The position numbers and the translations under genes were made by a program. Shown here in pieces: positions 4,109 to 11,880 of a stretch of DNA of 64,000 nt; position 1 is the first letter of the stretch; each line of letters opens with the position of its first letter. The notes beneath the pieces are model-generated. The model was not told the DNA's origin, ran no database searches, and saw nothing but the letters and a program-made list of their open reading frames with translations. The DNA is from the human T2T-CHM13v2.0 reference genome, Homo sapiens. Where the stretch lies: NCBI RefSeq assembly GCF_009914755.1, contig NC_060927.1; one strand, 5' to 3'.

Positions 4109-4248
4109 CTAGAAATGACTTAGGATGTTGGTAATGGTGTCTACTTGACTTTCTCATATAGGTCCCTGACCACAGGTGGTAGCTTGGTGTTCCCAGGCTG
4201 GGAGGAGGGCATGGCTGCCTCAGAGGACCCACAACTCCCTGGAGGCAC
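4109..4248 (-). pseudogene. NGP-like pseudo-exon 4 (C-terminal region)
   Basis: Acceptor cttctgcag|GTG. Reads VPPGSCGSSEAAMPSSQPGNTKLPPVVRDLYEKVK, then a 1-bp deletion creates TAG at 4143-4141; the shifted frame gives DTITNILSHF* (TAG 4111-4109). Confidence 0.9.
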
Positions 4249-4901
4249 CTGCAGAAGCTACGCTGAATAGTCACCACCATCACCGTCACTGACCGACCCC
4301 TCCCTCAAGGCCTGGGTGAGGGGGCTGAGGCGCCGGCAGACAGGGCTAAAGGATGGGGCTAGAGGTGGCCACTAGGCTGAACCCCTTTCCCCAGATCCCA
4401 GAGGGCCCAGACTCTGAGACTTGTTTCCGTCCTGGCTGTTCTTCTCAATTGCCAGGAGGCTCCACTTCTGCCTCCAGTTTTCCCAAATGTGGGATTAAGG
4501 GGAGGGTGGGTTTCCAAGGAATCTCTTGGGGCCAGAGCCCAGGGTCCAGAGCACAGCCAGGGCCCTGAGAGCACCGAGCGCCCTCAGCCAGCCCGGACCC
4601 CTCCTCTTCGTCTCCTGCGGAGGACTAGCAACAACCTAGACCCTCGCATTCCCCACACACTACAGGCCTCCCCCTTCCCAACAGCTTGCGTTAAGTGCTG
4701 GATCCGCTCCTACTTTCCAGATGAGGAAACTGAGGCGCCATGCTCTAAATTGCTGGCCCAGGCGGCGGCACCCCAGTGGTCGGGAGGTAACCAGGCTAAA
4801 GCCGCCGGCGAGGGGAAGGACGGGATTCGCGGCGGAGTTTCAGGGAGGCGCGTCTGCAGGCTAGAGGAGGGACCCGGGGGACCACACCGGGGCGGGCTCA
4901 C

Positions 4902-4976
4902 CTCTGACTCGCGCCGGGATCTTTGTTGGAACCGAGTGTCAGGAATCGCAAATACCGCGTGAAGAATTCCCCCGTG
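4902..4976 (-). pseudogene. NGP-like pseudo-exon 3, gene-orientation copy (5' end lost)
   Basis: ACG GGG GAA TTC TTC ACG CGG TAT TTG CGA TTC CTG ACA CTC GGT TCC AAC AAA GAT CC CGG CGC GAG TCA GAG|GTGAG. Confidence 0.8.
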
Positions 4977-4980
4977 GCCA

Positions 4981-8525: not shown

Positions 8526-9621
8526 GGCTGGGCGCAGTGGCTCATGCCTGTAATCCCAGTGTTATAAAGTTTTGGTGCAGCAAAAGAAATAGCACTTGAA
8601 TATAAAATTTTCTTTTTTTCGTCTCAGCAAGGCAATTTACTTCTATAGAAGGGTGCGCCCTCACAGATGGAGCAATGGTGAGTGCAAACCTGGGCAAGGG
8701 AGGGGAAGAATTTCTCCTGCTGCTGTGTTGTTCCCCTATTGGCTAGGGTTAGACTGCACAGGCTAAACTAATTCTGATTGGCTAATTTAAAGAGAGTGAT
8801 GAGGTAAGTGGTTTGGCAGGAAAAATGGTTATGGAATGAGTCAGGGTGGAGAATGAGTCAGGGCGGAGCAGGTAATTGAAATGAGTCAGGGTGGAGCAGG
8901 TAATCGGAATGAGTCAGGGTGGAGCAGGTGATGGAAAAAGGTTGCTTTATGAGGAAGTTAAGTTTAAAAGTAGAAGGCAAAGAATGGAACATACTGACAT
9001 ATTGACTCTTTGAAGAGAAATTTAGGACTCATATCTAACACCAGGACTTTGGGAGGCTGAGGTGGGCAGATCACCTGAGGTCAGGAGTTCAAGATCAGCC
9101 TGGCCAACATGGTGAAACCCCATCTCTACTAAAAATGCAAAAATTAGGCAAGATGCGATGGCTCATGCCTGTAATCCCAGCACTTTGGGATGCCAAGGCA
9201 GGTGGATCACCTGAGGTCAGGAGTTCGAGGCCAGCCTGACCAACATGGTGAAACACTGTCTCTACTAAAAATACACAAAAAATTAGCTGGGCGTGGTCGT
9301 GGGCACCTGTAATCCCAGCTACTCAGGAGGCTGAGGCAGGAGAATTGCTTGAACCTGGGAGGAGGAGGTTGCAGTGACCCGAGATCCCACCATTGCACTC
9401 CAGCCTAGGCGACAAGAGCAAAATGCCATCTCAAAAAAAAAAAAAAAAAAAAATTAGCTGGGCATGGTGGCACATGCCTGTAGTCCCAGCTACTTGGGAG
9501 GCTGAGGCAGGAGAATGGTTTGAACCTGGGAGGCGGAGGTTACAGTGAGCCAAGATCTCACCACTGCACTCCAGTCTGGGTGACAGAATGAGACTCCATC
9601 TCAAAAAAAAAAAAAAAAAAA
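8526..9621 (+). mobile_element. Alu interrupted by LTR10 and by a second Alu (about 9147-9455)
   Basis: TSD AAGATTTAATGAATGG at 8511-8526 and 9622-9637. Confidence 0.9.
8560..9040 (-). mobile_element. Solo LTR10 (LTR10A/F-like, ERV1) inserted in an Alu
   Basis: TG...CA termini; minus strand starts TGTTAGATATGAGTCCTAAATTTC; 4-bp TSD CCAG (8556-8559, 9041-9044); four TGAGTCA motifs. Confidence 0.85.
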
Positions 9622-11721
9622 AAGATTTAATGAATGGCTTCTGGATTTTGGACTTGCATGGGGCCTGTAGCCCCTTTCTTTTGGCCAAATTCTCCCTTTT
9701 GAAATGATAATGTTTACTCAATGCCTATACCCCCACTGTATCTTGGAGGTAAATAATTTCTTTTTGATTTTACAGGCTCCTAGGTGGAAGGGACTCATCT
9801 CTAGCTAAGACTTTGGACTTGAGACTTTTTTTTTTTTTTTTTTTTGAGTAGGATTTTTGCTCTGTCACCCAGGCTGGAGTGCAGTGGCTCGATCTTGGCT
9901 CACTGCAACCTCTGCCTCCCGGGTTCAAGCAATTCTCCTGCCTCAGTCTCCTGAGTAGCTGGGATTACAAGCGCGTGCCACCAAGCCCGGCTAATTTTTG
10001 TATTTTTAGTAGAGACAGGTTTTCACCATGTTGGTCAGGCTGGGGGACTTTTGAGTTAATGCTGGAATGAGTTAAGACTTTGGAGTCTAAGTGCTTGGGA
10101 GTTGATAAAACAATTTTTAAAATGAATAAATAAGTAGGCCAGGAGCAGTAGCTCATACCTGTAATCCCAGCATTTTGGGAGGCTAAGGTGGATGGATCAC
10201 TCAAGTCCAGGAGTTCAAGACCAGCGTGGGCAACATGGTGAAACCCCAACTCTACAAAAAAAATATAAAAATTAGCCAGGCATGGTGGCATGTGCCTGTG
10301 GTCCTAGCTACTCTGGAGGCTGAGATGGGAGGAGCACTTGAGCCTGGAAGGTGGAGGTTGCAGTGAGCCGAGATAGCACCACTGCACTCCAGCCAGGGTG
10401 ACAGAGCAAGAACTTGTCTCAAAAAAATAAAATTAGGCCAGGCACGGTAGCTCACACCTATAATCCCAGCATTTTGGGAGGCCGAGGCGGGTGGATCACC
10501 TGAGGTCAGGAGTTCAAGACCAGCCTGGCCAACATGGTGAAACGCCATCTCTACTAAAAATATTTAAAAATTAGCCAGGCATGGTGGTGGGTACCTGCAA
10601 TCCCAGCTACTCCAGAGACTGAGGCAGGAGAATCACTTGAACCTGGGAGGCAGAGGTTGCAGTGATCCGAGGTCGCAGTGATCCGAGGTCGCACCATTGT
10701 ACTTCAGCCTGGGCAACAAGAGTGAAACTCTGTCTCAAAAAAAAACAAAAAACAAATAAGATTTTAGGGGACTGTTGTAAAGGCATAATTGTATTTTGCA
10801 ATGTGAGAAGGACATGAGATTTGTGGGGGCCATGGGCAGAATGATGTAGTTTGACTGTATGTCCCTACCAAATCTCATGTCAAATTGTAGTCCCCAGTGT
10901 TGGAGGTAGAGCCTGGTGGGAGGTGTTTGGATCATGGGGGTGGATCCCTTATGAATGACCTGGGCCATCCCCTTCATGATAAGTGAGCTCTTTCTCTGAG
11001 TTCCCACAAGATCTGGTAGTTTAAATGTGTGTGGCACGTCCCCTCCACCTTGTTCCTGCCTTCACCATATGACGTGCCTGCTCACCTTTCACCTTCTGCC
11101 ATGATGGCAAGTTTCCTGACGCCTCCTCAAAAGCCAAGCAGATGCCAGGACTATGCTTCCTATAAAGCCTGCAGAACTGTGAGCCAATTAAACCTCTTTT
11201 CTTCATAAATTACCAAATCTCTGGTATTTCTTTATAGCAATGCAAGAACGGCCTAATACAAGTCACTTCCTGTCTTTGTCCCTCAATTTCCTCCTCTGTG
11301 TGAGGAAACAGGAAGAAGAATCCCTGCCCTGCGTATTCAGCTGCCACGTGAGGTAATAGTGCAGGAAGGGGAAACCGGAAACCCCCAAAGGTGTTGGTGA
11401 GACCAGTTCCCTTCCTGTCTGTCCTCTGAAACAGCTCTGCATATTCCCCCAAGCCCAGGACCTGAGTATAGTCTGGATCCCCAGACTTCGCTGGATGAAG
11501 CTCTAAATTTACCAGCCAGCTGGCTTTCAGGCCCAAGATTACTATCTTGTCTTACCTTCAGGTGAGAGAAACATTATAATAACATCAATAACGAACAGTA
11601 ACCAAGCACTTGGTGCCTGTGCCAGGCATTCTCTCCTGCCAGCCATCCTTACAGGTATGAGGCAGGTAATACCTGCTTCCCCACTGTCTCCTACCCAAGC
11701 CTGGGCCCTTGAGACACTCAC

Positions 11722-11880
11722 CGACCTAGCTAATGGGATGGCCTCCAGCAGTGGAAACGGGACTTTCCCAATTATCCCCATGGTAGATTTTTAAGGCCTG
11801 GGTGACAATCTCATAGCTCAACAGCACTGGGCCACCACTGTCAAGCCTGCCAACACTCACGCCCTCCAGGCCCCTGCCAT
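11722..11880 (-). pseudogene. NGP-like pseudo-exon 1 (signal peptide and start of cathelin domain)
   Basis: ATG at 11880-11878, premature TGA at 11859-11857, two frame changes, intact donor TCG|GTGAGT (GT at 11721-11720). Confidence 0.9.

What the first reader, a model, noticed from the sequence alone, without database searches (positions are those of the whole stretch)
4109..11880. Fossil of a lost neutrophil cathelicidin-family gene (NGP/p15) with all four exons still readable
Seen: four minus-strand segments in correct order, most with splice signals. E1 reads MAGAWRA*VLAGLTVVA/LSYEIVTQALKIYHG/GKVPFPLLEAIPLARS|gtgagt. E2 reads ag|N../SFRIKEIVCISSWE/WPQKCAFREG. E3 reads TGEFFTRYLRFLTLGSNKD/RRESE|gtgag. 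E4 reads ag|VPPG..LPPVVRDLYEKVK/DTITNILSHF*. Knowledge (recalled): rabbit p15 is roughly MAGVWK..GLAVVA..LRYEEVVAQALQFY..PLFRLLEATP..LNFRIKETVC..CAFREG..ICRG..LTLRCDRDQRRQPE, and mouse Ngp ends PPHIRNIYEDAKYDIIGNILKNF. Mouse Ngp lies between Klhl18 and Ptpn23 on the opposite strand, cathelicidins have four exons, and humans are generally said to have no NGP. Inference: this is the orthologous unitary pseudogene. The ORF track shows only short fragments of it, and I do not know whether it is annotated.
Basis: partly seen in the sequence, partly recalled or inferred. Interest (0 to 1): 0.92.

Follow-up and report, generated by a model that had tools for sequence, protein, structure and literature searches.

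The report
Dead human NGP neutrophil gene relic
Between KLHL18 and PTPN23 on human chromosome 3 lies the decayed but still readable remnant of NGP, a neutrophil granule protein gene that mice, rabbits and cattle still use; it is a real but ordinary gene fossil, and the loss of this gene in primates is already in print.

Summary
They are colinear with published NGP proteins read from the supplement of PMC12002115. By my hand count, 92 of 171 residues are identical to the closest one, XP_008570359.1. Six NGP peptide motifs each occur exactly once in the 64-kb window, all on the minus strand and in N-to-C order. 200 shuffled windows gave 7 motif hits in total.

The gene is thoroughly dead:
- a TGA at codon 8
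- six frameshifts spread over all four exons
- a lost exon-2 donor
- an exon-3 acceptor replaced by an inverted duplication of exon 3

It is single-copy in the T2T genome. It is not derived from CAMP, which lies 0.88 Mb away and resembles only exon 2. It sits next to KLHL18, the marker that flanks the NGP-containing cluster in other mammals.

The loss of NGP in humans and primates is already published. I found no description of the relic itself in eight literature searches, and RefSeq has no row for it. I could not check GENCODE, HGNC or TOGA. Interest is modest.

The parts
11881..11990 (-). Short unique stretch upstream of the ATG, the likely former core promoter. It has a TATA-like TATATATAAA at 11939-11948. 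An Alu begins further upstream, at about 12020.
   Evidence: Read directly. It lies inside the RefSeq 'enhancer 10791-11990' of the hub's table. Promoter function is inferred, not tested.
11722..11880 (-). Exon 1 relic, 159 nt: start codon, signal peptide and first part of the cathelin-like domain. It has a TGA at codon 8 (11857-11859) and two frameshifts, about 10 nt and 2 nt missing relative to intact NGPs.
   Evidence: Motifs MAGAW, IVTQALK and LLEAIP at 11866-11880, 11789-11809 and 11734-11751. Compared by eye.
11716..11721 (-). Intact exon-1 donor, GTGAGT. It sits at the position homologous to the CAMP exon-1 end.
   Evidence: The CAMP exon 1 translation ends ...LLDLDPRPTM, against ...LLEAIPLARS here.
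5946..11715 (-). Intron 1 (5776 nt counting the donor), swollen by many Alu copies and two copies of another interspersed repeat.
   Evidence: (repeat families D1-D10) and the hub's masked intervals.
5866..5945 (-). Exon 2 relic, 80 nt where intact NGPs need 102. It has an intact acceptor, about 19 nt missing after the first codons (frameshift) and 2 nt missing between the two Cys codons (frameshift). Both Cys codons are kept.
   Evidence: Motifs FRIKE at 5923-5937 and CAFREG at 5868-5885. Pfam PF00666, E=0.25, profile positions 46-67. The CAMP exon 2 alignment scores 35 with 0 of 500 shuffles reaching it, and 24 with 2 of 500.
5860..5865 (-). Lost exon-2 donor: reads CTGAGT instead of GTGAGT.
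   Evidence: 5860-5870 reads GGCAGCTGAGT.
4986..5089 (+). Inverted duplicate of exon 3 plus the first 25 or so bases of intron 3. It reads ICTGECFTLGHLRFLTLGCNKD... on the + strand and keeps both exon-3 Cys codons. It occupies the place of the exon-3 acceptor.
   Evidence: 86 matches, 15 mismatches and 3 gap columns between the arms.
4902..4978 (-). Exon 3 relic. The acceptor and first codons are missing, both Cys codons are replaced (Ala, Ser) and there is one frameshift before RRESE. The GTGAGC donor at 4896-4901 is intact.
   Evidence: Compared by eye.
4109..4248 (-). Exon 4 relic, 140 nt, with an intact acceptor. It holds the NGP-specific tail. One base is missing in the Tyr/Phe codon, which makes a premature TAG (4141-4143). 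The original stop is at 4109-4111.
   Evidence: Motif PPVVRDLYEK at 4150-4179. The only genome hit is to itself.

Best explanation
This is the unitary pseudogene of NGP (neutrophilic granule protein; rabbit p15). NGP is a cathelicidin-related protein of the cystatin superfamily found in neutrophil granules. The ancestral four-exon gene sat on the minus strand between KLHL18 and PTPN23, as in other mammals. In the lineage leading to humans it lost function and has since decayed neutrally.

What is wrong with it now:
- a stop at codon 8
- six frameshifts
- one lost donor
- one acceptor replaced by an inverted duplication of exon 3
- two of the four structural cysteine codons replaced
- introns filled with Alu elements

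It cannot make an NGP protein.

What is shown: the sequence anatomy, the lesions and the uniqueness in the genome. What is inferred: orthology (from end-to-end likeness to published NGPs and from the KLHL18 neighbourhood), and an old age for the loss, tens of millions of years.
For: 1. All pieces were verified.
2. The colinear match to the 28 NGP sequences printed in the supplement of PMC12002115 covers the signal peptide (MAGAWRA), SYE-IVTQALK, LLEAIP, FRIKE.VC, CAFREG, TGEF.TR..RFL.LG, and the tail GSSEAA...TKLPPVVRDLYEK.K.D.I.NIL..F followed by a stop. My hand count against XP_008570359.1 gives 32/59, 16/34, 14/32 and 30/46 identities per exon, 92 of 171 in all.
3. Six of these motifs each occur once in the window, in order, on one strand. 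200 shuffles gave 7 hits in all.
4. Exon boundaries match human CAMP's: the exon 1 end, and exon 2 from start to ...G|. Exon 2 is 80 nt, which equals the expected 102 minus the 19+2+1 missing bases.
5. In the whole T2T genome the exon-4 and exon-2 pieces hit only themselves at significant E-values. PF00666 finds only CAMP above its cut-off.
6. Synteny: KLHL18 ends 4.7 kb before the window (hub table). [quoted passage not shown]
7. [quoted passage not shown]
8. P0001 is an ORF call from an unnamed related genome. It is collinear with 4144-4574 on the minus strand, 61 of 67 residues identical over the intron part and 89% over exon 4. It ends at the same ...EKVK. So the exon-4 lesion is probably shared with a relative.
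Against: - No computed alignment to an NGP protein was made. The published sequences could not be handed to the tools, so the identity figures are hand counts.
- Pfam's Cathelicidins model does not reach its cut-off on any single-frame piece. The best is 12.1 bits against a cut-off of 21, E=0.25, and 7 of the 8 pieces gave no Cathelicidins match.
- The genome-wide PF00666 search did not list this locus.
The papers I read give only KLHL18 as the flank.
- No other primate genome could be examined, so the time and order of the lesions are not known.
Confidence: 0.95

Rival explanations
1. The relic descends from another member of the ancestral KLHL18-side cathelicidin cluster (an 'NGP-like' or non-classical cathelicidin, as marsupials keep), not from NGP proper.
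For: PMC12006171 describes NGP-like and basal cathelicidins beside NGP in cluster B, flanked by KLHL18 (passages). So position alone does not separate them.
Against: The closest published sequences by eye are eutherian NGPs, 92 of 171 identical to XP_008570359.1. The MAGAW start and the ...KYDII.NIL.NF tail are shared by the eutherian NGPs in that list. Both papers say eutherians kept only NGP from that cluster.
Confidence: 0.02
2. It is a decayed duplicate of CAMP (the LL-37 precursor), the only intact human cathelicidin gene.
For: Exon 2 resembles CAMP exon 2: scores of 35 and 24, reached by 0 and 2 of 500 shuffles, and tblastn E=0.014. Pfam PF00666 touches exon 2.
Against: Only exon 2 resembles CAMP. 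Exon 1 pieces scored 19 and 14, reached by 40 and 194 of 500 shuffles. Exon 3 pieces scored 15-17, reached by 192-301 of 500. The N-terminus and the whole exon-4 tail match NGP and have no CAMP counterpart. CAMP lies 0.88 Mb away on the other strand.
Confidence: 0.01
3. The coding function is dead, but parts of the relic have been reused: the old promoter and exon 1 as an enhancer, or the CpG-rich exon-3 palindrome as a promoter of an unannotated transcript.
For: The hub's RefSeq table lists an enhancer at 10791-11990, which covers exon 1 and the upstream stretch. Bases 4600-5400 meet CpG-island criteria: GC 0.57-0.67 and CpG observed/expected 0.68-0.79.
Against: No expression, chromatin or conservation data could be examined here. 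RefSeq enhancer calls often come from reporter screens and need not mean function at the native locus. This reading adds to the pseudogene call and does not replace it.
Confidence: 0.12
4. The pieces are a chance resemblance.
For: None beyond the weak Pfam scores.
Against: Exact 7- and 10-residue matches to published NGPs, six motifs in order on one strand, and splice signals at the homologous positions.
Confidence: 0.001

Closest known systems
NGP / p15 (neutrophilic granule protein) of mouse, rabbit, cattle, horse and other mammals. Closest in print by eye: XP_008570359.1, listed in the supplement of PMC12002115.
   Same: Four-exon layout, signal-peptide start, cathelin-like core with the FRIKE.VC and CAFREG motifs, the conserved uncleaved C-terminal tail, and the place beside KLHL18.
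   Different: The human copy has a stop at codon 8, six frameshifts, two lost splice sites, an inverted duplication of exon 3, and two of the four Cys codons replaced. It cannot encode the protein.
Human CAMP (hCAP18 / LL-37 precursor), Pfam PF00666 Cathelicidins
   Same: Paralogous cathelin-like domain. The exon boundaries are at the same places, and exon 2 is detectably alike.
   Different: CAMP is intact, lies 0.88 Mb away on the + strand, and has a variable cleaved peptide in exon 4 instead of the conserved NGP tail.
Human unitary pseudogenes as a class (for example those catalogued in PMC2864566)
   Same: Single-copy relic at the syntenic place of a gene that works in other mammals, with introns kept and many disabling lesions.
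   Different: NGP, 'neutrophilic' and 'cathelicidin' do not occur in the main text of that catalogue. Its supplementary tables could not be opened.

Membership tests
NGP (neutrophilic granule protein) orthologue | N-terminal signal peptide starting MAG.W(K/R) | tested here: met
   MAGAWRA at 11860-11880. The same start occurs in many of the 28 NGPs printed. Compared by eye.
NGP (neutrophilic granule protein) orthologue | Conserved, uncleaved C-terminal tail (LPP..R..YE.AKYDII.NIL.NF, then stop) | tested here: met
   KLPPVVRDLYEKVK, one missing base, then DTITNILSHF and a stop at 4109-4185. 30 of 46 exon-4 residues are identical to XP_008570359.1 by hand count.
NGP (neutrophilic granule protein) orthologue | Cathelin-like domain with four conserved cysteines | tested here: inconclusive
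   The two exon-2 Cys codons are kept. The two exon-3 Cys codons are replaced on the minus-strand copy but kept in the inverted copy. Pfam PF00666 gives 12.1 bits against a cut-off of 21.
NGP (neutrophilic granule protein) orthologue | Position beside KLHL18, syntenic with NGP of other mammals | tested here: met
   The hub table puts the KLHL18 end 4.7 kb before the window and PTPN23 at 29442. KLHL18 flanks the NGP-containing cluster in PMC12006171 (passages). The mouse order Klhl18-Ngp-Ptpn23 is recalled, not checked.
NGP (neutrophilic granule protein) orthologue | Open reading frame able to give the protein | tested here: not met
   TGA at codon 8, six frameshifts and two lost splice sites. 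It is therefore filed as a pseudogene of the family, not a working member.
Unitary pseudogene | No intact copy of the same gene elsewhere in the genome | tested here: met
   The exon-4 piece hit only itself. The exon-2 piece hit itself plus two chance-level places at E 3.7 and 5.6. PF00666 exceeds its cut-off only at CAMP. The tool scores only its best candidates, so this is strong evidence but not exhaustive.
Unitary pseudogene | Introns kept (not a processed copy) | tested here: met
   Three introns of 5776, about 887 and 653 nt, with 4 of 6 splice signals intact.
Unitary pseudogene | Working orthologue in other species | not testable with these tools
   No other mammalian genome is held. 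This rests on the published NGP proteins and on papers on mouse NGP function (abstract and passages of PMC6829075).

The most novel reading that the evidence does not exclude
The exon-3 palindrome was the founding lesion that killed NGP in an early primate ancestor. Its arms differ by 15 of 101 aligned bases, which at ordinary primate rates means tens of millions of years. The gene's old promoter and first exon have meanwhile survived as an active regulatory element (RefSeq enhancer 10791-11990). That would give a dated, mechanistically explicit account of how primates lost a neutrophil LPS-antagonist and cathepsin-inhibitor gene that mice still rely on.
Probability: 0.12. Interest if true: 0.45.

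Novelty: new member of a known kind. Interest (0 to 1): 0.3.

Why it matters
NGP is one of the most abundant transcripts of maturing mouse neutrophils. It has been reported as an LPS antagonist (PMC6829075, abstract and passages) and as a cathepsin B inhibitor (PMC6724555, passages), yet humans have no counterpart.

A readable relic shows that the human lineage once had the gene. It fixes the gene's place on the chromosome. It also gives a set of discrete lesions that can be scored across primates to date the loss: the stop at codon 8, deletions of about 10 and 19 bases, and the exon-3 palindrome. That is useful for annotation and for judging how far mouse neutrophil biology carries over to humans.

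It does not open a new question. The loss itself is already in print, and unitary pseudogenes are a familiar class.

Tried and rejected
Searches that gave little or nothing:
- Pfam on 8 single-frame pieces: only the exon-2 ORF touched PF00666, at E=0.25. One piece gave an unrelated weak hit (YsdD, E=0.16) and six gave nothing.
- PDB sequence search with the exon-2 ORF: one unrelated aminotransferase at E=0.54.
- The search for homologous proteins with the exon-2 ORF: 1 candidate, none scored. That library seems to hold no mammalian NGPs.
- Genome-wide PF00666: finds CAMP's three cathelin exons but not this locus. The three other hits are below the cut-off and elsewhere in the genome.
- The search of protein representatives with the exon-4 piece: no NGP. 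It returned one ORF call from a related genome (P0001) and two repetitive proteins that match by composition (P0002, P0003).
- tblastn of the CAMP exons against the whole window, looking for further cathelicidin relics: only noise apart from exon 2. The best hit, at 11369-11425 on the + strand (E=0.007), has no supporting features. The printed output was cut before the rows for the relic's own pieces.
- The bacterial promoter/terminator scan of 11700-12100 does not apply to a human gene and is disregarded.
- The first AATAAA on the minus strand after the stop is at 3560-3565. This is not evidence of anything.

- Supplement reading closed from then on, so the supplementary tables of the unitary-pseudogene catalogue PMC2864566 were not seen.
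- Tossi et al. 2024, the source cited for the primate loss, and PMC3136340 are not held.

Step left out:
- A computed alignment of published NGP proteins to the window was left out, because sequences from a paper are not among those that may be typed into the tools.
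Full report
**What is there**

- **Exon 1 (11722-11880, 159 nt).** It begins with ATG and MAGAWRA and hits TGA at codon 8 (11857-11859). It goes on as VLAGLTVVA, shifts frame to LLSYEIVTQALKIYHG, and shifts again to GKVPFPLLEAIPLARS. It ends at a GTGAGT donor.
- **Exon 2 (5866-5945, 80 nt).** It follows a good acceptor (CTTTTTTGTTGCTTCTTTAG). 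It reads N, then LSFRIKEIVCISSWE in a shifted frame, then WPQKCAFREG in a third. At its end the sequence is GGCAGCTGAGT, so the GT donor is gone.
- **Exon 3 (4902 to about 4978).** It reads ATGEFFTRYLRFLTLGSNKD, then RRESE in a shifted frame, then a GTGAGC donor.
- **Exon 4 (4109-4248, 140 nt).** It follows a CAG acceptor. It reads VPPGSCGSSEAAMPSSQPGNTKLPPVVRDLYEKVK, then TAG, then DTITNILSHF and TAG one base out of frame.

Exon 3 has no acceptor. Its 5' end runs into an inverted copy of itself.

- The arms are 4876-4976 (minus strand) and 4986-5089 (+ strand), separated by only about nine bases.
- They align with 86 matches, 15 mismatches and 3 gap columns.
- The + strand copy reads ICTGECFTLGHLRFLTLGCNKD and keeps both cysteine codons of exon 3. 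The minus-strand copy has Ala and Ser at those places.
- Each arm includes the donor and about 25 bases of intron 3.
- The first codons of exon 3 and the end of intron 2 are absent from both arms.

**Is it NGP?**

None of the protein libraries I could search holds mammalian NGPs. The supplement of PMC12002115 does print 28 NGP proteins. I could read these but not hand them to the tools, so the comparison is by eye.

The relic matches them from end to end. The file gives accessions only. The paper's species list includes Galeopterus and Tupaia (section 16). Assigning XP_008570359.1, the closest, to the colugo is my recollection. Against it I count identities per exon of:

| Exon | Identical residues |
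|---|---|
| 1 | 32 of 59 |
| 2 | 16 of 34 |
| 3 | 14 of 32 |
| 4 | 30 of 46 |
| Total | 92 of 171 |

The matches include an exact IVTQALK, LLEAIP, CAFREG and TKLPPVVRDLYEK.

Each occurs once, all on the minus strand, in N-to-C order. The analytic expectation is between 9e-9 and 2e-2 per motif. 200 block-shuffled windows gave 7 hits in total, in 6 shuffles. I chose the motifs after seeing the match, so this shows the pieces are unique in the window and not scattered. It is not an unbiased probability.

**Exon structure**

Human CAMP was found in the same genome with Pfam PF00666, at C3:48251402-48252474, 0.88 Mb away on the + strand.

- Its exon 1 ends ...LLDLDPRPTM. The relic's exon 1 ends ...LLEAIPLARS at the same distance from the LL pair.
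- CAMP exon 2 runs DGDP...KKDG.
- The relic's exon 2 has 80 nt where an intact NGP needs 102. That equals the 19 + 2 + 1 bases I infer to be missing.

**Not CAMP-derived**

Only exon 2 resembles CAMP.

| Relic piece | Score against its CAMP counterpart | Shuffles reaching it (of 500) |
|---|---|---|
| Exon 2, first piece | 35 | 0 |
| Exon 2, second piece | 24 | 2 |
| Exon 1 pieces | 19 and 14 | 40 and 194 |
| Exon 3 pieces | 15 and 17 | 301 and 192 |

The signal peptide and the exon-4 tail have no CAMP counterpart.

**Single copy**

In the whole T2T genome the exon-4 piece hits only itself (E 2.7e-18). The exon-2 piece hits itself plus two chance-level places (E 3.7 and 5.6). PF00666 exceeds its cut-off only at CAMP. 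The tool scores only its best candidates, so this is strong but not exhaustive.

**Results against, or weaker than hoped**

- Pfam does not recognise the pieces one by one. The best is 12.1 bits against a cut-off of 21, and 7 of the 8 pieces gave no Cathelicidins match.
- The genome-wide Pfam search did not list this locus.
- The PDB search gave nothing relevant.

This is what one expects of exons broken into stretches of 10 to 20 residues. It does mean that the family assignment rests on the published NGP sequences and not on a profile score.

**Synteny**

The hub's table puts the end of KLHL18 4.7 kb before the window and PTPN23 at 29442. PMC12006171 (passages) says three things:

- KLHL18 flanks cluster B of marsupials and monotremes.
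[quoted passage not shown] The mouse order Klhl18-Ngp-Ptpn23 is recalled, not checked.

**Age (inference)**

- The palindrome arms have a Jukes-Cantor distance of 0.166. At recalled primate rates of 1 to 2.2e-9 per site per year this is roughly 40 to 80 million years. The CpG-rich content would shorten that estimate, and gene conversion between the arms would lengthen it.
- Six frameshifting indels in about 500 coding bases also point to a long neutral history.
- P0001 is an ORF call from an unnamed related genome. It is collinear with 4144-4574 on the minus strand (61 of 67 residues identical over intron 3, 89% over exon 4) and stops at the same ...EKVK. So at least the exon-4 lesion probably predates that split.

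**Function**

None as a protein. NGP in mouse is described as a secreted LPS antagonist (PMC6829075, abstract and passages) and as a cathepsin B inhibitor (PMC6724555, passages). The human relic cannot supply either activity.

Two stretches might have other uses. The old promoter and exon 1 lie inside a RefSeq 'enhancer' (hub table). Bases 4600-5400 meet CpG-island criteria. Neither could be tested here.

**Novelty**

The loss of NGP in primates is in print. I found no paper that describes the relic in eight full-text searches. The main text of the unitary-pseudogene catalogue PMC2864566 does not mention NGP, and its supplements could not be opened. RefSeq's T2T annotation has no row here (hub table).

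Several sources that may describe it were out of reach:

- GENCODE, HGNC and TOGA
- the review cited for the loss (Tossi et al. 2024)
- the PDF supplement and figures of PMC12002115

I therefore rate it a new, unannotated member of a familiar class, with modest interest.

Noticed in passing
window 4600-5400: This stretch meets CpG-island criteria: GC 0.57-0.67 and CpG observed/expected 0.68-0.79 in 400-nt windows, against 0.06-0.37 on either side. It covers the exon-3 palindrome and parts of introns 2 and 3. The hub's table lists no feature here.
   Followed up: partly
window 6170-6565 and 10841-11233: Two direct copies, 83-85% alike, of a roughly 400-nt interspersed repeat that is not an Alu. 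Both lie in intron 1 of the relic (families D7 and D9). At least ten Alu-like copies fill the rest of intron 1, one lies in intron 2 (5329-5610), and one lies just upstream of the old promoter (about 12020-12200).
   Followed up: no
P0001 (unnamed record), collinear with window 4144-4574 minus strand: A public library holds a 143-residue 'protein' that is an ORF call through intron 3 and exon 4 of the same relic in a related genome. It is not a real protein, but it shows the exon-4 stop is shared.
   Followed up: partly
G000:C3:48251402-48252474 (L001-L003): Human CAMP, the only place in the genome above the Pfam Cathelicidins cut-off. It lies 0.88 Mb from the relic on the opposite strand.
   Followed up: yes
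window 10791-11990: The RefSeq 'enhancer' of the hub's table covers exon 1 of the relic, its TATA-like upstream stretch (11939-11948) and one copy of the interspersed repeat in intron 1.
   Followed up: no
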